DNA of 64,000 bases from a virus (lineage: Duplodnaviria > Heunggongvirae > Uroviricota > Caudoviricetes), in the IMG/VR virus record IMGVR_UViG_3300045988_134250. One strand, written 5' to 3'. The first letter of the stretch is position 1; each line of letters starts with the position of its first letter. The position numbers were made by a program, and so were the translations under genes. The notes under the pieces were generated by a model, which searched no databases, had not been told where the DNA came from, and saw nothing but the letters and a program-made list of their open reading frames with translations. Of the stretch, positions 2,202 through 40,425 are shown one piece after another.

Positions 2202-2969
2202 TCACCCCATAGATATCGAGGTTTCGGTAATAATACGTTTTGCGTCCAACTCCCATGCTGTGATCACGTCTGCAATCACACTTATCGGCGCTTGTGTGGC
2301 ATAAATACGCTCTTCTCCAATTGGTGCTGAAACATCCGTAAAGCCGACTTCTTTGGCATCCTGTATCGAGCAAATCAGCGGGACCGGGACACGAACAAGG
2401 TGAGTGGTTGCTTCAAATTGTGTACCTGTCATCAGGCGAAGCCGTGCGCCCAGCGAATTACACATCAGACTCATGGTCGCTTTATCAGTTGCCATTAACG
2501 TAACGTCATACGTCAGAATGGCCTGGGTGTATTCCAGTTCTGCTAAAGGCATTCCGGTATCCGGTTCGCAAAAACTGGCTACTTTTTTGCGGTCAATCTG
2601 CTGATCATCGTTGATATAATTGATATCCATATTGCGTGAGATATTGACCAGGGGGAGAGCATCCCGGTTAATGTTCTGGTTTTCAGGTTTTCTCCCTTGC
2701 CCGGCATTTGCGCGACGAACTGCTTTAAGAAACTCGATCGCATTGTCGAAACGGGCCACATAGACACGCTCTGCTGGTGGACGATTCAGGAATGACGCAA
2801 AGCGTTTTTCTTCCGGCGCGGGGGCCACCAGTAAGATATCAGAAAAAATGTTGCTGATTAGCGTCGCAAACGCGTTATCCACGTTTTCAAAGCCCGTGGT
2901 CTGGAATTTTCCTGTGCGTGAGGTTTGCCATTCACCTGTTCGCGCCAGGAGGGTTTTATTTGAAGTCAT
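2202..2969 (-). CDS. Hypothetical phage protein
   Basis: 255 aa ORF, same operon, overlaps the upstream gene at 2966-2969. Confidence 0.35.
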   Translation of the reverse strand: MTSNKTLLARTGEWQTSRTGKFQTTGFENVDNAFATLISNIFSDILLVAPAPEEKRFASFLNRPPAERVYVARFDNAIEFLKAVRRANAGQGRKPENQNINRDALPLVNISRNMDINYINDDQQIDRKKVASFCEPDTGMPLAELEYTQAILTYDVTLMATDKATMSLMCNSLGARLRLMTGTQFEATTHLVRVPVPLICSIQDAKEVGFTDVSAPIGEERIYATQAPISVIADVITAWELDAKRIITETSISMG

Positions 2970-3769
2970 TCGATCACTCCGTTTTGAGTCGTATCAAAAT
3001 TCCTGGCAGGTATGCAGTAGTAAAGCGAACCAACATGCTGTGTGCCGTAGCTAAAAATACGGTGCACGTACCACCAGCGGCGCGCTACGCCGTTTACCAT
3101 CTCTTCATTCCATTCAAGAATTGAGCCGACGGGGACGTTATTTGCTGCAATACGCAGAATCAGAACATCATCGGTTAAGCCATCCTGCTCACCGTCTGCG
3201 TCAATCGCATGGAAAGAGTCACGCCCGTCAGGGTTATCCAGCACATAAACGATTTCAGGTTCCTGGTAAGTCAGTTCGCGTTGGTTGTTATCCAGTTCGG
3301 TGAATGACTCTTCTCCTGTTTCGTCGCTGACTACCCCATATGTGCCAACATCTGGTCGATATAAGAGAGCCTGAAACGCGTCTGGGCTGGATTCAATAAT
3401 CAGCATCCAGTCTGCGCGGATTTGGTCGTTAAAGGCTTTATGCCCGTTATAGCGTGCTTTTAACTGTGGAGTCGGTTCTCTGCCAGCCAGGGAAGATGGA
3501 AGTATGGCTATATCTGATTCGCCAGCATCCGGAGTAAGGCCACCGTTGCTATCAGCAAAATTATCATGGCTATCAGCTTTGGCGGCGGGTTGCTCTTCCA
3601 GAATGCTGAATGAATCCGAACCGGTATTGCCATGTTCCGGCGCGCCTCCTGCATTCGCTTCAATCGGCGCTGGCGTTTCTCTCTGCGTGCTGTCATGTTC
3701 TGACTCCTTACTTGCCAGGTTTGCATCGTCAGCAAACCATTCGTCAAAACGGCCCATAAGCATCCTCAA
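2966..3769 (-). CDS. Hypothetical acidic phage protein
   Basis: 267 aa ORF, Asp/Glu-rich N-terminal half; first gene of the minus-strand block. Confidence 0.35.
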   Translation of the reverse strand: MRMLMGRFDEWFADDANLASKESEHDSTQRETPAPIEANAGGAPEHGNTGSDSFSILEEQPAAKADSHDNFADSNGGLTPDAGESDIAILPSSLAGREPTPQLKARYNGHKAFNDQIRADWMLIIESSPDAFQALLYRPDVGTYGVVSDETGEESFTELDNNQRELTYQEPEIVYVLDNPDGRDSFHAIDADGEQDGLTDDVLILRIAANNVPVGSILEWNEEMVNGVARRWWYVHRIFSYGTQHVGSLYYCIPARNFDTTQNGVIE

Positions 3770-3919
3770 AGGTCGATCTGTCAGGTATCGAAAGGAAGAT
3801 TTTCTGGAGATTGTGATTTTGGATGAAGGAGGGGGAATTCATAAAATGCACTTGCGCACAGTGCAACGGTGCGCTATAGTTATGGCATTCGGTAATCATC
3901 ACGGAGGATCAAATGACTA

Positions 3920-4222
3920 ATGACCAAAAAAATTAACATAAAGGATTTCAGGGATGCGTGGCTTGATGATTTTTTTGAATTTTCAACACCACATAGAAAG
4001 ATACCTCCTGATATTCATATGACATTGTCACGGAAGTTGGACATTATCAATGCCGCAACTACCTGTAAGGATTTAAGATCACCACCAGGTAATCGGTATG
4101 AGGAACTGTCAGGGAAGCTAAATGGCTATTCATCAGTAAGGGTGAATAAGCAATATAGGTTAATTTTTAGGTGGGTTAACGGAAAGGCCGAGGACTTGTA
4201 TCTCGACCCTCACAAATACTAA
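3920..4222 (+). CDS. higB: HigB toxin (RelE/ParE superfamily, plasmid-killer type)
   Basis: 100 aa; C-terminal GKLNGYSSVRVNKQYRLIFRWVNGKAEDLYLDPHKY resembles recalled HigB family; followed by an HTH antitoxin. Confidence 0.8.
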   Translation: MTKKINIKDFRDAWLDDFFEFSTPHRKIPPDIHMTLSRKLDIINAATTCKDLRSPPGNRYEELSGKLNGYSSVRVNKQYRLIFRWVNGKAEDLYLDPHKY

Positions 4223-35191: not shown

Positions 35192-35584
35192 CTACCAGCG
35201 AGACAAACGAACAACATGTTTCACTTTTGCGATCCACTGTCCGCGATAACTATTGATTACGGCCTGTGCCAGCTTCAAATTGGCTTCAAAATCAGCCTTA
35301 CTACCATCAGACTCCACCAGCATTCCTCCATCTATTTCTGGTAAACATAGATAATCCTGCTCAACCTGCAGCGGCATTGATGGCTCTCTGAATGGGGTTA
35401 CTTGCTCTGCTTTCCAGCGAAATCTAACCCTTATCCCCCTGGTGGTCATTACTAGATAGCCTGTTATAGTGCTTTTATGGCCCACATCAGTACGCGTGGC
35501 ATTGCATGACTCGATCTTACAGTTAGCGATAGACCACTCCATATTGGTGGCCTGTTGAGTGCTTAATTTGGTAGTCCCGTACAT
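35192..35584 (-). CDS. Hypothetical protein
   Basis: 130 aa ORF. Confidence 0.4.
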   Translation of the reverse strand: MYGTTKLSTQQATNMEWSIANCKIESCNATRTDVGHKSTITGYLVMTTRGIRVRFRWKAEQVTPFREPSMPLQVEQDYLCLPEIDGGMLVESDGSKADFEANLKLAQAVINSYRGQWIAKVKHVVRLSRW

Positions 35585-36159
35585 CAGAAAGCCTCCCAGT
35601 CAGTCGCGATAATATCCACACCAGTTGCAAACCAGTCTGTCTGCGCCTGTAAATCCCCATTCATCATTACCAGGCGAGGCATCACCATCACATCGCACCC
35701 TTCCACAATATCGAATGCCTCTTCCGGCAAGAATTCGAAGAGCTTTTCTTTGCTGCCAATACTGCCACGGAACATCGATATATAGCTCCCTTTGGGCCAT
35801 GATGTCCGCCGGGCATCAAGCCCTTTCATCATCCAGTAAAAAGCCGAGGAAAAAGGGATATTCTTTTTGCCAATGATTACATTATTCGCTTCTGTGTATT
35901 TCAGGAACTTAACTAACCTTACCATTGACTCGGATAACGCAACGTATGGCTCATGATTGATTGCTGACACGCTTACACCGTGCAATCCAACGCTTACCAC
36001 TGTCATATCGCCGCTCTGTGCGGTTTCGATATTGACGCCTTTGCGAACTAATGAGGCGTAAATTTCCTCTCGCTTTTGGGTCCAGCGTTCACGCTTCCCT
36101 ATGAAGTCACTCAAAATGAGATCTTCTTCTGTATATGCGTTATCGTTCGCCATTAACAT
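35584..36159 (-). CDS. Hypothetical protein with C-terminal W-rich DUF2829-like domain
   Basis: 191 aa; FYWMMKGLDARRTSWPKGSYISMF ... DIIATDWEAF. Confidence 0.45.
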   Translation of the reverse strand: MLMANDNAYTEEDLILSDFIGKRERWTQKREEIYASLVRKGVNIETAQSGDMTVVSVGLHGVSVSAINHEPYVALSESMVRLVKFLKYTEANNVIIGKKNIPFSSAFYWMMKGLDARRTSWPKGSYISMFRGSIGSKEKLFEFLPEEAFDIVEGCDVMVMPRLVMMNGDLQAQTDWFATGVDIIATDWEAF

Positions 36160-36602
36160 AACGTTTCCTTTTTTACACGCGCGACTATCCCCCGGAAGTA
36201 CCGGTAGTGATGTCGTAACTTCGTATTAATTAAGGGGTACAGCCTGAGCGGCTATATGATGAATTGAAAGGAGTTGTGGCGGTGGTGCCTCCACCTGCCA
36301 GGTTAGCCACTCCTGGCGACGTCACTTATCAGAACGTAGTGAATGAAAATGGCTTCGTCACGAGCGCATAGCCGCAATTACCACAACGGAAACGGCGCTC
36401 ACGCTAATTAAACGCCTTTTCCTGTTGTGCGCCGTGCTCTTCCGGCTGTCACACCGAATCGCCAGGATGGTGAATCCGCAGTCCGACGCTATGAACGGGG
36501 CTTGCACATTCCGGCTACCTGGTGTGCCCATGCAGTGTTAGTAAAAGGTACCTAACAGCTACACCAGACCGCTAACGACGCATGTGCCATACGCCGTGTT
36601 AC

Positions 36603-36678: not shown

Positions 36679-37116
36679 TAAAGGGCCAGATTACTGTTAA
36701 TTACGCTTACGCTTTTTGCCAGAACCGCGTAAGGCTTTTGCCGCTTGCTCTACCCCGTATGCAACCACCAGCAGAAACAATAATGTCCACTCCGGGTTTT
36801 TATCGGCAAACGCCCAAAAATCCATCACTTGCAGCCACCTTTTAAGACAAAACGCCATTGCTGTTAGGTTGCGGTGCCGGGCGCCTCCCGGTGACGTTAA
36901 CCAGTTAACAATTAACGCCGGATCACTTATGGATTCTCGTTACGCCAGTAAAAAGACCACCTTTACTGTTTTAACTGTTCCGCGTGCGCTTAGCCGCATT
37001 CACCGCAATGGTAAGAGCATTTGGCTGACTGGGCGGCGATGACGCCTGTACGCATTTGGTGATCCGGTTCTGCTTCCGGCATTCGCTTAATTAGCCAAAT
37101 ACCCTTAATGTTGCAC

Positions 37117-37203: not shown

Positions 37204-37338
37204 CGTTATTGTGGCGACCGGTGCTGATCTCCGGCTTGCGGTTATTTCAGACTCTCACGGGCGTTTAATTGCCCCGCCGAACAGCTCTTTTCCGCAATAG
37301 CTGCAATGTCTTTCGCGCATCAGCCTGCGCATTCACCA

Positions 37339-37428
37339 CAATGTTGAGAACACTGGTTGTCACGCTGCAACGCAACATTTATTCGTAGATTGGGATATGA
37401 CCCCGTTACGCCAGTGTTCTCAACGTTG
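37339..37428 (-). repeat. Long hairpin element (18-bp stem, one mismatch) next to a degenerate tRNA 3'-end remnant
   Basis: caatgttgagaacactgg ... ccagtgttctcaacgttg; followed by gtgccggtta, which resembles the tRNA-Thr 3' end. Confidence 0.5.
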
Positions 37429-37575
37429 TAGTGCCGGTTACGGTTCCGGCCAGACCTCTTCCTCAACGGGGTGTTCTCCATACGGACTACCGTTTATTGG
37501 TCGTTCCTGCGGTTTATGTTGTGAAGCCAGATGCTTATCTTCTGGTTGCTTCAAAGAGCTGCACTTCATCACAAC

Positions 37576-37649
37576 GGTAAGAGCATTTATGGCTCGCATC
37601 GCGGGAAAAAGCCCACGGTAGAGAGTCGAACTCTACAAATGCTCTTACC
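37576..37649 (-). repeat. Long hairpin element (13-bp perfect stem, 48-nt loop) directly 3' of tRNA-Thr
   Basis: ggtaagagcattt ... aaatgctcttacc; the same 13-mer ggtaagagcattt recurs at 37012. Confidence 0.5.
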
Positions 37650-37657
37650 TGTTGTGT

Positions 37658-37733
37658 TGGTGCCGGTTAACGGGATCGAACCGCTGACCATTCGCTTACA
37701 AAGCGACTGCTCTACCAACTGAGCTAAACCGGC
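37658..37733 (-). tRNA. tRNA-Thr (anticodon UGU)
   Basis: GCCGGTTTAGCTCAGTTGGTAGAGCAGTCGCTTTGTAAGCGA...AGCGGTTCGATCCCGTTAACCGGCACCA; folds canonically. Confidence 0.8.
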
Positions 37734-37737
37734 AATT

Positions 37738-37824
37738 TGGTGGGGAGTGATGGAGTCGAACCACCCGAGTCGCAATGACAGTAGATTTACAGTCTACCCC
37801 GCTACCCCTACGGACTAACTCCCC
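37738..37824 (-). tRNA. tRNA-Tyr (anticodon GUA), long variable arm
   Basis: Acceptor GGGGAGT/ACTCCCC, anticodon arm GTAGA-CTGTAAA-TCTAC, T-arm GGTGG-TTCGACT-CCATC, CCA. Confidence 0.65.
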
Positions 37825-37829
37825 TAAAT

Positions 37830-37904
37830 TGGCGATGGTGGGTGGATTCGAACCACCGACCAGTTGGTTAACAGCCAACTGCTCTACCGCTGAGCTACAC
37901 CATC
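37830..37904 (-). tRNA. tRNA-Asn (anticodon GUU)
   Basis: GATGGTGTAGCTCAGCGGTAGAGCAGTTGGCTGTTAACCAACTGG...GGTGGTTCGAATCCACCCACCATCGCCA; acceptor GATGGTG/CACCATC. Confidence 0.75.
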
Positions 37905-39139
37905 ACTTGCCGGGTACGTCTCCGGCGAGGGCTTCCACCTCCGTATGCTTTTCGGCGCACCGCGCCCTGGCTGCAATTCGGTAACAGGGGATGCACAACC
38001 CTGGCTTCCAGCGTGATTAGCGCCTTCAGCATGACGGGATATACCCGTTACAAGAAGTTCTCCCAGGATGCCATTAAGCAATGGCTGTTACGCGGGAAGG
38101 ACGCAACAGGTAAGGGCGCTGACCAGAAAGACCTGACCCTTCTCATTCATCTGGTTAATCACACCAGCGCCCTTGCCTGTTATGCCTCCCCGTTCCCTAA
38201 TACACAGACGGGGACACTCTGCGGTCGATTTTTTTGACGGGGGACGACTCATACCCCGTGGCGTCTGGCTTCTTAGCCCGCTACCATCATCAGATCATCG
38301 TTTGCATTTACTTTAATGGTCAGTTTCTAAACCGCCGCAAAGTCGCTAACCATGACGAAAACCCTAAAAAAGCCCACCCGAAGATGGGCAAATACGCTAC
38401 ATCTCACACAAGAAAGAAGCCGACTGCCTGAGCTGGATTCACTTTCAAATGCCCGCTGAAAGGGATCACAAGTCGGCTTCTTTCTTGATGCGGCACTCTC
38501 TCCGCCCGTCACCGCTCTGTCTCGGTTGTCGCGTTTGCCACGCCAGCCGTAACGAGGTTTAAAGTCTTTACACGTTTCCATCACTCGACTGCCGTCTGTG
38601 GCTGTTCGTTGCAGCGGGGGTGCCTCCCCCTGGGGATATCCCCGGCCTTACCCCATTCTTTCAAGACACAATGCAAGGCCACATCCGCATAGGTGCATTA
38701 CCGCAACATTAAGGAGACTCAGGGCAAAAGGTAACCGCCACAAAAATCCCTATGCCTCCTTAATGTTGAAGATGTGCATTGATGATTAGATGCAGCATGT
38801 ACCGTTACTCTCTGCCGGACCATCATCAATGAACACCTTAAAAAGACCTTCCGTGGCTCAACATGTATTGTCGTTTACTCCGCAAAGTGCTCTCTCTGAA
38901 ACCACTTTCCGCACTAAACCTGCTGAACTTTGGCCTGCACGGTGCCAAAGCGTGCTCTTGCATTACTATACATTTCTAACACTTTAATTTGTTAAATGCT
39001 GGTGGGCGAACAATAACCAATAAGTGACTATCAAGCCCAGCAAGCGAAACGTGGGTACCGCCCACCAGCAAGGAAAATTCTATGTTAAGTTATCTTCACA
39101 ATCAATACATTCGAATTGTGATTTTAGATTTCTAACACA

Positions 39140-40348
39140 TTATTTCCCATAAAGATCTTCTACACCCCCATTCTTCTTATCCCATTCGTTCGCCCATACC
39201 CGGCAAGCGTCAATGATTTCCTGACGACGATCTCCTTGCATGAACGGGATGCTTTCATGGAAACAGCTTGGAATGCAGGCCACACTGAATACAGTATCAA
39301 ACTCCGTCTGCTTGATTGCCTCCAGCGTCTCCGGACGCATTTTTAATTCATCGATTGGCGCATCCTTAGAGTCCATAATCCGGCGATATAAGCGCGGAAA
39401 ATCCGTCTCCAGATACGCCATAATTTTATCTGCGAGACATTCGTCTATGTCGGTATTCCAGTCCTTTTCGAAGCCCGGCAGGCGATAGTAAAGCGGCGTT
39501 CCCCATACCGATGGGATCACATCCATCGTTAACAGGCGATTGGTTCTGATTTGTTGATGGTAATTAGCCGTCAGCAGTGCTTCGCCACGCTGCCCAGTTT
39601 CCGCAACCAGGCCGTGCGGATACTCATGGATGTAGGCAATGGCATCCCTTCCATCATACATAAGTGGAAATGTCTCTGGTCTTTGTCCCATGCCACAAGC
39701 ACGGTTCAGATCGTGACCAAGCTGTGAGCACTCTCGCTTTAATGTTTCGATAATGCTCTGCGCTGTAGCCAACTTTTTACGCAGTGTGACGCCTTCGCCT
39801 TGATAATCAATGCATTGCTGATTGAGCTTGGTTAAACGCTCTTTTAGTTCCCGGCGCTCTCTTTTCAGCGTGCGGTTATCCTTCTCCGCAACATCCAGCC
39901 GCTTTGTCAGGCTTGGCGGATAGTCTTTTTTGTAACGGTTCAAATCGGCTTCGGCAGATTTACGCAGTGTATTTGCCTGTTCAAGACGCGCTTCCAGATT
40001 GCCGATCTCATTACGCATATTCGCGGCAAATTGATTAACTGCATCACCCAGGCTTTCAACTGTCGCTGATACGCCTGTGACTTGTGAAAAACGGATCAAG
40101 CCATCATTAACTGCTTGTTGGTATTCCTCAAACTGATCCACCAGCTTATTGTAATCAACTGCCCCATCATCAAGCAGCTTGTTGATTTCCGCCACCAGGT
40201 TATCTGTAGTGGCAATGACACTCTCGTGCAGTCGCTTTGACAGGTCATCACCCGGATTCCGTTTCTGTATAAGAGCGATTTGTGTGCGCAGCGTTTCAAT
40301 TGCTGTCGAGATAATTTCCAGATTAGAAGTATCAGTGTGTTGACTCAT
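39140..40348 (-). CDS. Hypothetical protein with long N-terminal coiled coil
   Basis: 402 aa; TTTCTAACA-type site about 35 nt upstream of the start. Confidence 0.45.
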   Translation of the reverse strand: MSQHTDTSNLEIISTAIETLRTQIALIQKRNPGDDLSKRLHESVIATTDNLVAEINKLLDDGAVDYNKLVDQFEEYQQAVNDGLIRFSQVTGVSATVESLGDAVNQFAANMRNEIGNLEARLEQANTLRKSAEADLNRYKKDYPPSLTKRLDVAEKDNRTLKRERRELKERLTKLNQQCIDYQGEGVTLRKKLATAQSIIETLKRECSQLGHDLNRACGMGQRPETFPLMYDGRDAIAYIHEYPHGLVAETGQRGEALLTANYHQQIRTNRLLTMDVIPSVWGTPLYYRLPGFEKDWNTDIDECLADKIMAYLETDFPRLYRRIMDSKDAPIDELKMRPETLEAIKQTEFDTVFSVACIPSCFHESIPFMQGDRRQEIIDACRVWANEWDKKNGGVEDLYGK

Positions 40349-40425
40349 TGCTATTCCCGTTACTTTGTTAAATTATTTTTCTAACATATTTTATTAGTTT
40401 GATGACAGTATCGAAAGATGCAATA

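What the first reader, a model, noticed from the sequence alone, without database searches (positions are those of the whole stretch)
37906..39140. A 1.2-kb gene-poor region with several long perfect inverted repeats
Between the tRNA cluster and the 402-aa gene there is no convincing ORF, but there are perfect inverted repeats with 40-45-nt loops: 15 bp at 38411-38425 / 38471-38485 (agaaagaagccgact / agtcggcttctttct) and 13 bp at 38704-38716 / 38756-38768 (caacattaaggag / ctccttaatgttg), plus a GC-rich palindrome near 39010-39070 and two operator-type sites. The architecture is compatible with structured non-coding RNAs or an origin/partition-like region.
Basis: seen in the sequence. Interest (0 to 1): 0.45.

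Follow-up and report, generated by a model that had tools for sequence, protein, structure and literature searches.

The report
Structured leader of phage tRNA operon
The "gene-poor" 1.2 kb is most likely the repressor-controlled promoter and long, hairpin-rich, untranslated leader RNA of a D6/P1-type phage tRNA operon, and at least one hairpin belongs to a widespread, apparently undescribed phage hairpin family also present at the DicF processing site of E. coli's Qin prophage.

Summary
No ORF survives across relatives.

The window is a D6-like phage-plasmid. The left 487 nt are 91-92% identical to the leader of P1's C1-repressed ban operon. The right 750 nt occur only in D6-like elements.

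On the minus strand I find:
- an invariant sigma-70 promoter (39105-39077) flanked by two copies of a dispersed motif (TTTCTAACA, 13 copies in the window), which also sits upstream of c1, lpa and ref and is probably the D6 C1 operator;
- five hairpins whose stems are kept by compensatory changes and minus-strand-only G·U pairs;
- a strong intrinsic terminator (38389-38366);
- the tRNA genes.

A covariance model built only from lambdoid prophage hairpins detects the 38090-38187 hairpin (E about 1e-5), three more in the tRNA array, and one in the Qin dicBF operon, where RNase III makes the 190-nt DicF precursor. This family keeps its stem constant while its loops are unrelated.

Best reading: a non-coding leader built of RNA processing or stability hairpins. 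An origin or partition role is not supported. Transcription and cleavage are untested.

The parts
39128..39144 (+). Operator-like site O2 (ATTTCTAACACATTATT). It overlaps the pmgS stop codon and lies about 50-66 nt upstream of the predicted transcription start.
   Evidence: The core 9-mer TTTCTAACA occurs 13 times in the window against about 0.5 expected. It is conserved in all relatives. In L004-type relatives it is part of a full inverted pair abutting the -35 hexamer.
39077..39105 (-). Sigma-70-type promoter: -35 TTGATT (39105-39100), 17-nt spacer, -10 TAGAAT (39082-39077). Predicted transcription start near 39070.
   Evidence: It is the only consensus promoter in 37500-39500. Both hexamers are invariant in 26 distinct relatives (one G/A change, giving TAAAAT) while the spacer varies freely. 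The start site is inferred, not measured.
38997..39070 (-). 5'-proximal hairpin: 12-bp perfect stem with a 50-nt structured interior, beginning at the predicted start of the transcript.
   Evidence: minus strand -33.8 kcal/mol, z -4.4; plus strand -29.9. Compensatory CG>GC change at A1 columns 46/104 and UA>GC>AU at the inner helix 68/87.
38972..38988 (+). Operator-like site O1 (ATTTCTAACACTTTAAT). It lies in the spacer of a second candidate promoter (38995-38965: TTAACA, 19 nt, TATAGT).
   Evidence: GTGTTAGAAA is invariant in A1. The -10 of the second promoter is not conserved in every lineage, so that promoter is doubtful.
38766..38842 (-). Imperfect hairpin (21-nt arms, 86% complementary).
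   Evidence: minus -26.8, z -4.1; plus -21.2, z -2.6. 96% of cells are paired in A1 helix 5, but without double-sided changes.
38700..38772 (-). Hairpin with a conserved stem and a hypervariable loop (38717-38755). In two relatives the loop is exactly inverted.
   Evidence: Compensatory changes AU>GC (columns 371/431), GC>AU (386/416) and CG>UG>UA (365/437). G·U pairs exist only on the minus strand. Folding: minus -32.2 against plus -25.6 kcal/mol. The family model gives only a marginal match (11.7 bits, E 0.65).
38605..38705 (-). Core that is 99% conserved, with three small hairpins (38644-38680, 38632-38643, 38616-38630). The first relies on four invariant G·U pairs.
   Evidence: Conservation profile. 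Identical even in L005, which is 72% identical elsewhere. Helices 9-11. Its function is unknown. IS421 is inserted here in L012.
38405..38491 (-). Hairpin with a 17-bp perfect stem and a 45-nt structured interior, directly upstream of the terminator.
   Evidence: z -5.1. Two to three compensatory pairs in L004-type relatives: AU>UA at 661/729, GC>AU at 663/727, UA>AU at 673/709.
38366..38389 (-). Intrinsic terminator GCCCAUCUUCGGGUGGGC followed by U6 (UUCG tetraloop).
   Evidence: Conserved in all relatives and in P1, with one-sided changes only (GC>GU, UG>CG). In P1 and L004-type relatives the 'dicF-like' module sits just upstream of it. The window has lost that module.
38253..38362 (-). Highly conserved post-terminator segment, homologous to part of the Q-to-holin late leader of lambdoid prophages.
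   Evidence: 82-85% identity to 152 chromosomal places. In L063 it lies 175 nt downstream of the Q antiterminator gene.
38090..38187 (-). Hairpin (arms 38105-38121 / 38165-38181) that is a member of the widespread phage 'constant stem, variable loop' hairpin family.
   Evidence: Model R1, built from 15 lambdoid hairpins only, scores it 27.6 bits, E about 1e-5, better on the minus strand than the plus (23.3). Its arm matches CAACAGGTAAGAGCA with 2 mismatches. Folding -48.6 kcal/mol, z -5.5. Shared with P1 (L002 4191-4286).
37830..37904 (-). tRNA-Asn, the first gene downstream of the leader. It is followed by tRNA-Tyr and tRNA-Thr, two more family hairpins, tRNA-Ser, an STnc100-like element, a tciB-like ORF and tRNA-Met.

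Best explanation
The region is the control region and roughly 1.17-kb untranslated leader of the D6-type counterpart of the P1 ban operon, an early, prophage-repressed operon that here carries tRNA genes.

Proposed sequence of events on the minus strand:
1. Transcription starts at a sigma-70 promoter (39105-39077). It is flanked by two D6-type C1-repressor operators, so it should be silent in the lysogen.
2. The RNA begins with a stable 5' hairpin and folds into a series of long-stemmed hairpins.
3. Most transcripts end at a strong intrinsic terminator (38389-38366), giving a structured RNA of about 700 nt.
4. Read-through transcripts continue through a fifth hairpin (38090-38187) into tRNA-Asn, tRNA-Tyr, tRNA-Thr and beyond.

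The hairpins act at the RNA level as double-stranded processing and stabilising modules, most likely RNase III substrates with RNase E cutting nearby. They would separate the leader, the tRNAs and the downstream cistrons, as happens at the homologous dicF locus of the Qin prophage. What matters is the stem. The loops are largely free to vary, which explains the hypervariable and even inverted loop at 38717-38755.

Shown here: the repeats, the lack of coding capacity, the conservation, the covariation, the promoter and terminator sequence signals, the homology to P1, Qin and lambdoid leaders, and family membership of one hairpin.

Inferred: transcription itself, the start site, repressor binding, RNase III/E cleavage, and the balance between termination and read-through.
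For: Identity and context:
- The region is 99% identical to phage D6. Its left 487 nt are 91-92% identical to P1 just upstream of tRNA-Asn.
- P1 annotates Pban, the C1 operators Op72a/b and a 'dicF-like region' there, all on the tRNA strand.

Non-coding:
- No ORF is conserved. Conservation is equal to or higher than in pmgS.

Promoter, operators and terminator:
- The promoter hexamers are invariant in 26 distinct sequences while the spacer varies.
- The operator motif has 13 exact copies against about 0.5 expected, while the P1-type operator has none.
- Copies lie upstream of lpa (Pfam BPP1_LPA), of ref, and of c1, the last by D6's own annotation.
- L004-type relatives have an inverted operator pair abutting the -35 hexamer.
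- The terminator is conserved, including in P1.
- There is no promoter between the terminator and the tRNAs.

RNA structure:
- In the leader alignment, 96.7% of cells are paired (0 of 500 shuffles reach this). Sixteen pairs carry double-sided changes, against 8.9 in shuffles and 2-9 in slid controls.
- Several helices rely on G·U pairs that would be A·C mismatches on the plus strand.
- Four of five hairpins fold more stably on the minus strand.

Hairpin family:
- A model built from lambdoid hairpins alone finds 38090-38187 (E about 1e-5) and three more members in the tRNA array, all scoring better on the minus strand.
- Across the family, 11 of 19 stem pairs covary (6.2 in shuffles) with frequent G·U.
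- At least 7 unrelated loop families sit on identical arms in more than 120 viral contigs.

Mechanistic precedent:
- P1's dicF-like module is homologous to the segment just upstream of DicF in Qin.
- A family hairpin lies at L062 1409-1507.
- The 190-nt DicF species has an RNase III-made 5' end (PMC10448788). By length arithmetic, that end falls in the 3' arm of this hairpin.
Against: - No transcription, start-site or cleavage data exist for this region in any D6-like or P1-like element that I could find.
- Only one of the five hairpins is a statistically supported family member. The 38704/38768 hairpin is marginal (E 0.65) and 38409/38487, 38766/38842 and 38997/39070 are not detected.
- The compensatory changes come from few independent events in a narrow clade. 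They could partly reflect DNA-level arm-to-arm correction by template switching, and the exact loop inversion in L007/L023 shows that such events do occur.
- The wobble signal is mixed for some stems.
- The operators flank the better promoter rather than overlapping it.
- A strong terminator upstream of the tRNAs, with no known antiterminator, leaves tRNA expression unexplained.
- The RNase III position in Qin is my estimate (about +/-10 nt) from a gel-sized RNA. The paper's own coordinate (813/814) could not be mapped.
- Neutral loops would be expected to drift gradually rather than be replaced wholesale.
Confidence: 0.6

Rival explanations
1. The hairpins are sRNA cassettes. A conserved stem acts as a processing scaffold and the variable loop is the functional part, released or displayed as a trans-acting antisense RNA against host or competing-phage transcripts, in the manner of DicF, P1 c4 or P4 CI.
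For: - The family carries at least 7 unrelated loop sequences on identical arms. The 38717-38755 loop is hypervariable between relatives whose flanks are 99% identical.
- The homologous Qin locus makes the trans-acting sRNA DicF by RNase III/E processing.
- The equivalent lambdoid leader regions are known to be dense in Hfq-dependent sRNAs such as PasA/C, PasD/STnc100, AgvB, AsxR and StxS.
- Loops differ by wholesale replacement rather than drift.
Against: - No complementarity of 13 nt or more to a plausible target was found in the 64-kb window. There were 4 twelve-mer hits against 8.5 in shuffles.
- Two relatives carry the loop in inverted orientation, which would destroy an antisense function.
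- Rfam's C4 and DicF models do not match.
Confidence: 0.15
2. The repeats act at the DNA level. They could be conserved 'linker' sequences or MITE-like elements that promote recombination and cassette exchange (for example of tRNA genes) between temperate phages, or simply cruciform-prone DNA maintained by template switching, with no RNA function.
For: - The stems are near-perfect.
- L007/L023 carry an exact loop inversion, the classic product of intramolecular template switching or recombination.
- The region is clearly mosaic. L016 is a recombinant, modules are present or absent between relatives, and the first tRNA differs (Asn or Arg).
- Family hairpins flank tRNA genes in both P1/D6 and lambdoid leaders.
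- IS elements have inserted nearby.
Against: - G·U pairs are frequent and strand-specific in the family (G-C 34 against G·U 31 at one pair; U·G, C-G and U-A at another). On DNA these would be A·C mismatches.
- The model scores the operon-sense strand higher at every site.
- A conserved bulged A sits in the 5' arm only.
- No flanking target-site duplications are visible in 15 lambdoid copies.
- Inner helices within the loops also covary.
Confidence: 0.1
3. The hairpins form a cis-acting attenuation or antitermination device. Alternative RNA structures, or a put-like RNA acting on RNA polymerase, would decide whether transcription stops at the 38389-38366 terminator or reads through into the tRNAs.
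For: - A strong terminator sits between the only promoter and the tRNAs. In P1, ban is expressed from the homologous promoter through the same terminator (my own knowledge of the P1 literature).
- In the lambdoid locus L063, the 3' arm of a family hairpin can instead pair with downstream sequence to form an 11-bp stem followed by a T-run.
- The region is homologous to the Q-antiterminated late leader.
Against: - I found no convincing alternative pairing between the 38409/38487 hairpin and the terminator in the window.
- Most hairpins lie far from the terminator.
- Family members also occur between tRNA genes, where there is no terminator.
Confidence: 0.1
4. The region is a replication origin, partition site or other plasmid-maintenance element.
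For: Only the presence of inverted repeats and the lack of genes. The host element is a plasmid prophage.
Against: - There are no iterons and no DnaA boxes. GATC is depleted and GC is 50%.
- The homologous P1 stretch is a transcribed operon leader.
- pGF4-B is maintained with IS421 inside the conserved core. Other relatives carry 105-125-nt deletions or insertions.
Confidence: 0.02
5. The region encodes small cysteine-rich peptides. Reading frames through several family hairpins end in ...CSY(R/H)CGEC(A)G.
For: Six of seven lambdoid loop families keep an open frame through the hairpin into this motif. Two window ORFs (36990-37082 and 37320-37481, minus strand) end in HCGECG or HCGECAG (and my reading of the sequences).
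Against: - Within the finding, no ORF is conserved.
- The upstream sequence is a terminator or a tRNA, with no start codon or ribosome-binding site.
- Loops this short are stop-free by chance about half the time.
- The shared motif is explained by nucleotide conservation of the 5' end of STnc100.
Confidence: 0.03

Closest known systems
Leader of the bacteriophage P1 ban operon (Pban, C1 operator Op72a/b, 'dicF-like region', then tRNA-Asn and tRNA-Thr)
   Same: Same genomic slot and strand. The 487 nt next to tRNA-Asn are 91-92% identical. It has the same intrinsic terminator and the same 38090-38187-type hairpin. A repressor-controlled promoter lies at the far end.
   Different: P1's leader is about 650 nt and the window's is about 1170 nt. 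The extra 600-700 nt, with four hairpins and the conserved core, exist only in D6-like elements. P1-type operator sequences are absent and replaced by a different motif. The window has lost the dicF-like module itself. The upstream neighbour is pmgS rather than dmt.
The dicF region of the dicBF operon, Qin cryptic prophage of E. coli K-12
   Same: P1's dicF-like module is 77-79% identical to the segment about 25 nt upstream of DicF. A member of the same hairpin family precedes it. The STnc100/dicB leader that follows DicF is homologous to window 37022-36870. The RNA is processed by RNase III (190-nt species) and RNase E (53-nt species) from a repressor-controlled polycistronic transcript.
   Different: No DicF homolog is present: Rfam RF00039 does not match the window or P1. 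The D6-specific 750 nt have no chromosomal relatives. tRNA genes are inserted here.
P_R'-t_R' late leader of lambdoid/Stx phages (StxS, the tRNA genes ileZ-argN-argO, PasA/C, PasD/STnc100)
   Same: The layout is promoter, short terminated RNA, hairpin(s), tRNA genes or remnants, then an STnc100-type RNA. Window 38253-38362 and the array hairpins have direct sequence homologs between Q and the holin gene. Family hairpins sit immediately after the terminator.
   Different: There the promoter is constitutive and read-through needs the Q antiterminator. Here the promoter appears repressor-controlled and no antiterminator is known. The terminated RNA here is about 700 nt, not about 70.
RNase III processing hairpins between cistrons of phage T7 early RNA
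   Same: Long-stemmed hairpins punctuate a polycistronic phage transcript. The stem matters and the loop does not (my own knowledge of the T7 literature).
   Different: There is no sequence relationship. Cleavage is proven for T7 and untested here. The present family has a conserved stem sequence and a conserved 3' flank (GUUGYGGUGAAUGC).
P1 c4 and P4 CI antisense RNAs
   Same: Hairpin RNAs of about 70-80 nt cut out of the leader of a phage operon (my own knowledge).
   Different: Rfam's C4 model does not match. No complementary target sites were found in the operon or in the window.

Membership tests
P1 ban-operon-type leader | Lies directly upstream of the tRNA-Asn/Thr cluster, on the same strand, with sequence homology to P1 | tested here: met
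   91-92% identity over 487 nt adjacent to tRNA-Asn.
P1 ban-operon-type leader | Promoter controlled by C1 operators of the P1 consensus ATTGCTCTAATAAATTT | tested here: not met
   No match with up to 3 mismatches anywhere in the window. A different dispersed motif (TTTCTAACA, 13 copies) occupies the equivalent loci. So it works like an operator but is not the P1 sequence.
P1 ban-operon-type leader | Contains the 'dicF-like' module | tested here: not met
   The module is absent from the window and from D6. It is present in P1 and in L004-, L005- and L006-type relatives.
P1 ban-operon-type leader | Intrinsic terminator within the leader | tested here: met
   38389-38366, conserved with P1.
DicF sRNA (Rfam RF00039) | Match to the covariance model | tested here: not met
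   No hit at E up to 10 in 37880-39200, or at E up to 0.5 in P1/L004. The same search finds true DicF in Qin at 76.7 bits.
   27.6 bits, E about 1.3e-5 over the whole window with filters off. The minus strand scores higher than the plus. The arm matches the 15-mer with 2 mismatches.
   11.7 bits, E 0.65. The arms and 3' flank (GTTGCGGTAATGC) resemble the family by eye only.
   Not among hits at E up to 10. They share the architecture only.
RNase III processing site | Extended double-stranded RNA stem conserved by covariation on the transcribed strand | tested here: met
RNase III processing site | Cleavage by RNase III in vivo or in vitro | not testable with these tools
   The only support is indirect: the 190-nt DicF species in Qin (PMC10448788) combined with a family hairpin at the inferred cut.
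Replication origin / partition site | Iterons, DnaA boxes, an AT-rich unwinding element or GATC clusters, and indispensability for maintenance | tested here: not met
   IS421 insertion in a maintained plasmid.
c4/CI-type processed antisense RNA | Rfam C4 match, and target sites complementary to the hairpin loops in the same phage | tested here: not met
MITE-like mobile element | Terminal inverted repeats flanked by target-site duplications | tested here: not met
   Inverted arms are present, but no flanking direct repeats appear in 15 aligned lambdoid copies. Empty sites were not searched for.

The most novel reading that the evidence does not exclude
Temperate enterobacterial phages (lambdoid, P1-like, D6-like) may share an undescribed modular RNA device. 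It would be a sequence-conserved stem of about 19 bp with a bulged A and a conserved 3' flank, serving as an RNase III processing scaffold, into which unrelated 35-55-nt inserts are exchanged. In effect these would be pri-miRNA-like cassettes that release or display variable small RNAs from operon leaders. On this reading the D6 leader is an array of such cassettes, and the hypervariable 38717-38755 loop is a specificity element under diversifying selection.
Probability: 0.15. Interest if true: 0.75.

Novelty: new variant of a known kind. Interest (0 to 1): 0.45.

Why it matters
It turns an unannotated 1.2-kb gap, present in more than 100 sequenced D6-like phage-plasmids of E. coli, Salmonella and Shigella, into a concrete and testable model: a repressor-controlled promoter, a long structured leader RNA and a terminator ahead of phage tRNA genes.

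It proposes the D6 C1 operator sequence, which differs from P1's.

It links three regions usually treated separately: the P1 ban leader, the DicF locus of Qin, and the Q-dependent late leader of lambdoid/Stx phages. All three share segments and one hairpin family. As far as I could find, that family is not in Rfam or the searchable literature, although it occurs in more than 120 viral contigs and at the site where the DicF precursor is cut.

If the hairpins are RNase III sites, they would explain how phage tRNAs and sRNAs are released from these operons. If the loops are functional, this would be a new class of exchangeable phage sRNA cassettes.

Tried and rejected
- Rfam scans of the region at permissive thresholds gave only chance-level hits. 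P1's 'dicF-like' region is not recognised as DicF.
- The P1 genome paper and the D6 genome paper are not held. Literature searches for the ban operon or P1 transcriptomics of this leader found nothing useful.
- More distant relatives were sought through the neighbouring PmgS protein and through exact DNA words. Genome contigs returned nothing and viral contigs returned only the same narrow D6 clade. Covariation within the D6-specific part therefore rests on about 6 lineages.
- Coding potential is rejected.
- Origin or partition features are rejected.
- Antisense targets within the window are rejected.
- No second promoter was found between the terminator and the tRNAs.
- The resemblance of the 3' flank of the 38704/38768 hairpin to the family flank is not significant by pattern search or by the model.
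- A full-text search for the hairpin arm sequence gave only irrelevant hits.
- The idea that the hairpins are degenerate tRNAs or RNase P substrates was considered and dropped. ARAGORN finds none and there is no 3' CCA, although the array hairpin at 37576-37649 does contain a T-arm-like stem-loop (UUCGACU).
- Two pSa1423 plasmid sequences (L003, L010) were excluded as likely error-ridden assemblies, with many 1-2-nt indels and fragmented genes.
Full report

| Left arm | Right arm | Arm | Loop |
|---|---|---|---|
| 38409-38425 | 38471-38487 | 17 bp, perfect (reader reported 15) | 45 nt |
| 38704-38716 | 38756-38768 | 13 bp, perfect; 21 nt at 86% | 39 nt |
| 38997-39008 | 39059-39070 | 12 bp, perfect | 50 nt |
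| 38105-38121 | 38165-38181 | 17 nt, 94% (missed by reader) | 43 nt |
| 38766-38786 | 38822-38842 | 21 nt, 86% (missed by reader) | 35 nt |

Dinucleotide shuffles of the region give a mean of 0.06 for the nested count of perfect repeats of at least 10 bp with loops up to 60 nt. Five distinct sites were observed. The chance of an arm of 12 bp or more was 0.006. Across the whole 64-kb window, perfect repeats of at least 11 bp with loops of 39 nt or more are found only between 37343 and 39070. Three are in the finding and two lie between the tRNA genes. All other perfect repeats in the window have shorter loops (3-31 nt), most of them terminator-like. Each element spans 65-82 nt.

**2. Identity and context.** The window is a D6-like phage-plasmid: 99% identity to Escherichia phage D6 across the finding.
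- The five tRNA genes to the left (Met, Ser, Thr, Tyr, Asn) are on the minus strand. So is the 402-aa PmgS-like gene to the right.
- The 487 nt next to tRNA-Asn are 91-92% identical to P1, P7, SJ46 and relatives. P1's curated record shows this stretch as the leader of the ban operon. On the tRNA strand it contains Pban with the C1 operators Op72a/b, a 'dicF-like region', tRNA-Asn, tRNA-Thr, tciABC, tRNA-Ile, ban and dbn.
- The remaining 750 nt (38392-39140) occur only in D6 among deposited phages. They are present in 121 plasmids and in 99 of 5426 complete E. coli genomes, always on plasmids, at 79-100% identity.

**3. Not coding, not an origin.**
- None of 12 candidate ORFs keeps its start, frame and stop across 13 divergent relatives. 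The window even has a private extra T in the run at 38226-38232, which creates one of its ORFs.
- The region is nevertheless as conserved as pmgS or more so. A 100-nt core (38605-38705) is 99% conserved, even in L005, which is 72% identical in the flanks.
- There are no iterons and no DnaA boxes. GATC is under-represented (2 against 4.6 expected) and GC is 50%.
- pGF4-B carries IS421 inside the conserved core. Other relatives carry 105-125-nt insertions or deletions. The region is therefore not needed for plasmid maintenance.

**4. Promoter, operators, terminator (minus strand).**
- The only consensus promoter in 37500-39500 is TTGATT, 17 nt, TAGAAT at 39105-39077. In an alignment of 26 distinct relatives, both hexamers are invariant apart from one G/A change that gives TAAAAT, while the spacer varies. 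The start site would then be near 39070, the first base of the 38997-39070 hairpin. This is an inference.
That 9-mer occurs 13 times in the window against about 0.5 expected, often as an inverted pair or preceded by AAATTA. The P1 operator consensus does not occur at all.
- Copies lie just upstream of lpa (Pfam BPP1_LPA), of ref (RecA-dependent nuclease), and of the ORF that D6's record calls 'prophage repressor, similar to P1 gene C1'. These loci carry C1 operators in P1. That last statement rests on my own knowledge of Lobocka et al. 2004, which is not held in the library.
- In L004-type relatives, a full inverted pair (ATGTTAGAAA...TTTTCTAACA) abuts the -35 hexamer.
- One site (38972-38988) lies in the 19-nt spacer of a second, less conserved candidate promoter at 38995-38965.
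- A strong intrinsic terminator (GCCCAUCUUCGGGUGGGC followed by U6) lies at 38389-38366 and is conserved in P1.
- No promoter-like site lies between the terminator and the tRNAs.

**5. RNA structure.** I counted a consensus structure of local hairpins on the 26-sequence alignment.

| Measure | Observed | Shuffles | Slid controls |
|---|---|---|---|
| Cells forming a standard pair | 96.7% | 94.2% (0 of 500 reach the observed value) | 38-50% |
| Pairs with double-sided changes | 16 | 8.9 | 2-9 |
| Cells with double-sided changes | 62 | 18 | 2-12 |

- Robust examples of compensatory change:
  - 38704/38768 hairpin: AU>GC, GC>AU and the series CG>UG>UA.
  - 38409/38487 hairpin: AU>UA, GC>AU and UA>AU.
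  - 38997/39070 hairpin: CG>GC in the stem and UA>GC>AU in an inner helix.
- Several helices depend on G·U pairs that would be A·C mismatches on the plus strand. The core hairpin 38644-38680 has four invariant ones.
- Four of five hairpins fold more stably as minus-strand RNA.
- Caveats: the clade is narrow, so independent events are few. L007 and L023 carry an exact inversion of the 38717-38755 loop, which shows that DNA-level template switching acts on these repeats. The loop of this hairpin exists in at least four unrelated versions while its stem is constant.

**6. Homology outside the P1/D6 group.**
- P1's 'dicF-like' module is absent from the window but present in L004-, L005- and L006-type relatives. 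It matches 4428 of 5426 E. coli genomes at 75-79% identity.
- In a K-12-type strain the match lies in the Qin prophage between ydfC and dicB, about 25 nt upstream of true DicF (Rfam 76.7 bits). It is followed by STnc100, the dicB leader.
- The first 50 nt of that STnc100 region are homologous to window 37022-36960. Rfam reports a partial STnc100 match there.
- Window 38253-38362, just past the terminator, has 152 chromosomal matches. In one lambdoid prophage it lies between the antiterminator Q gene and the holin gene, that is, in the P_R'-t_R' late leader.
- That prophage's leader also holds a near-copy of the window's array hairpin 37576-37649. It also holds a second hairpin with the same arms but an unrelated loop.

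**7. A hairpin family.**
They carried 19 distinct loops falling into at least 7 unrelated families of 35-54 nt. The hairpins typically sit immediately after an intrinsic terminator and are followed by TGGTGAATGC....
- I built a covariance model from 15 lambdoid members only, with no P1/D6 sequence. Run over the whole window with filters off, it gave:

| Position (minus strand) | Element | Bits | E-value |
|---|---|---|---|
| 37558-37659 | array hairpin | 49.2 | 6e-12 |
| 36370-36432 | short-loop hairpin downstream of tRNA-Met | 39.3 | 5e-9 |
| 37325-37433 | array hairpin | 29.6 | 3.5e-6 |
| 38090-38187 | the finding's own hairpin | 27.6 | 1.3e-5 |
| 38690-38773 | the 38704/38768 hairpin | 11.7 | 0.65 (not significant) |

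  Every hit scores better on the minus strand. The other three hairpins of the finding are not detected.
- Over 98 loci the model also finds four members in P1 and one in the Qin dicBF operon at L062 1409-1507.
- In the resulting alignment (79 distinct rows, fitted to the model), 97.5% of cells pair. Eleven of 19 stem pairs show double-sided changes, against 6.2 in shuffles and at most 5 in slid controls. G·U is common, for example G-C 34 against G·U 31 at one pair.

**8. Mechanistic precedent.** Ragunathan et al. (PMC10448788) show that DicF is cut from the polycistronic, repressor-controlled dicBF RNA. RNase III makes the 5' end of a 190-nt species and RNase E makes the 53-nt form. Counting 190 nt back from DicF's 3' end (L062 about 1674-1678) gives about 1485-1489. 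That falls in the 3' arm of the family hairpin, which folds as one long stem. This placement is my arithmetic (about +/-10 nt), because the paper's own coordinate could not be mapped. The equivalent lambdoid leaders are also known to encode processed or terminated regulatory RNAs: StxS (PMC7547250), PasA/C, PasD/STnc100, AgvB and AsxR. I found no description of the hairpin itself.

**9. Conclusion.**
- The finding is the control region and long untranslated leader of the D6 version of the P1 ban/tRNA operon. It is built from serial long-stemmed RNA hairpins.
- One hairpin is a demonstrable member of a widespread phage hairpin family tied to RNase III processing at the DicF locus. The other four share its architecture and show RNA-level conservation, but are specific to the D6 lineage.
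- The most likely role is RNA processing and stabilisation in a repressor-controlled, partly terminated transcript. I put this at about 0.6.
- The alternatives are exchangeable sRNA cassettes (0.15), DNA-level recombination elements (0.1) and an attenuation or antitermination device (0.1).
- An origin or partition function and coding are essentially excluded.
- Nothing about transcription, repressor binding or cleavage has been measured.

Noticed in passing
window 37558-37659, 37325-37433 and 36370-36432 (minus strand): Three more members of the same hairpin family lie between and after the tRNA genes (E 6e-12, 3.5e-6 and 5e-9). The first contains a T-arm-like stem-loop (UUCGACU). Their 3' arms and flanks form a direct-repeat family (36995-37022, 37328-37352, 37565-37588).
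   Followed up: partly
window 36870-37007 (minus strand): A partial STnc100 (RF02076) match at 39 bits, below the gathering score of 47. It lies upstream of a tciB-like ORF (36697-36858) and is homologous to the dicB leader of Qin. Compared with D6, the window appears to lack tciA at this spot.
   Followed up: partly
window 35584-36159 (minus strand): A 191-aa ORF with a Tad2-like (Thoeris anti-defence 2) Pfam domain, E 9.5e-10. RefSeq calls its relatives 'MW1434 family type I TA system toxin'.
   Followed up: no
L007 2825-2889 and L023 823-887, corresponding to window 38704-38768: The 39-nt loop between the 13-bp arms is exactly inverted in two relatives. This small hairpin-mediated inversion is evidence that template switching or recombination acts on these repeats.
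   Followed up: partly
13 sites in the window: 522, 12054, 12712, 16123, 29319, 30729, 35162, 38973, 39129, 40378, 41421, 51323, 52522: The dispersed motif TTTCTAACA, often as an inverted pair or preceded by AAATTA, is probably the D6-type C1 operator and is distinct from P1's ATTGCTCTAATAAATTT. Sites at 40378 and 41421 lie beside the morphogenesis genes pmgS and pmgM, which was not explained.
   Followed up: partly
L002 (P1) 3252-3345, 3513-3621 and 3746-3847 (minus strand): Three family hairpins lie antisense to P1's annotated upl and plp genes (L002 3306-3875, plus strand). Those two ORFs of unknown function may be artefacts of the hairpin array.
   Followed up: no
L001 (D6 RefSeq record NC_050154) 2233-3999: The D6 record annotates its tRNA genes on the wrong strand and omits tRNA-Met. 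ARAGORN places all four on the strand of the operon. The tRNA set next to the leader differs between relatives: Asn-Tyr-Thr in the window, Asn-Thr in D6 and P1, Arg-Tyr-Thr in L004.
   Followed up: yes
L012 near window 38617-38629, and L064 1291-2460: Mobile elements have inserted in this leader in relatives. IS421 sits in the conserved core of pGF4-B, and an InsQ/TnpB (IS605-type) gene sits between dmt and the leader of a P1-like plasmid.
   Followed up: no
L063 2476-2501: In a lambdoid late leader, the 3' arm of a family hairpin can alternatively pair with downstream sequence to form an 11-bp stem followed by a T-run. This is a possible terminator/antiterminator switch.
   Followed up: no
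window 38226-38232: The window has T7 where every relative has T6. This private 1-nt insertion alters the apparent ORFs.
   Followed up: yes
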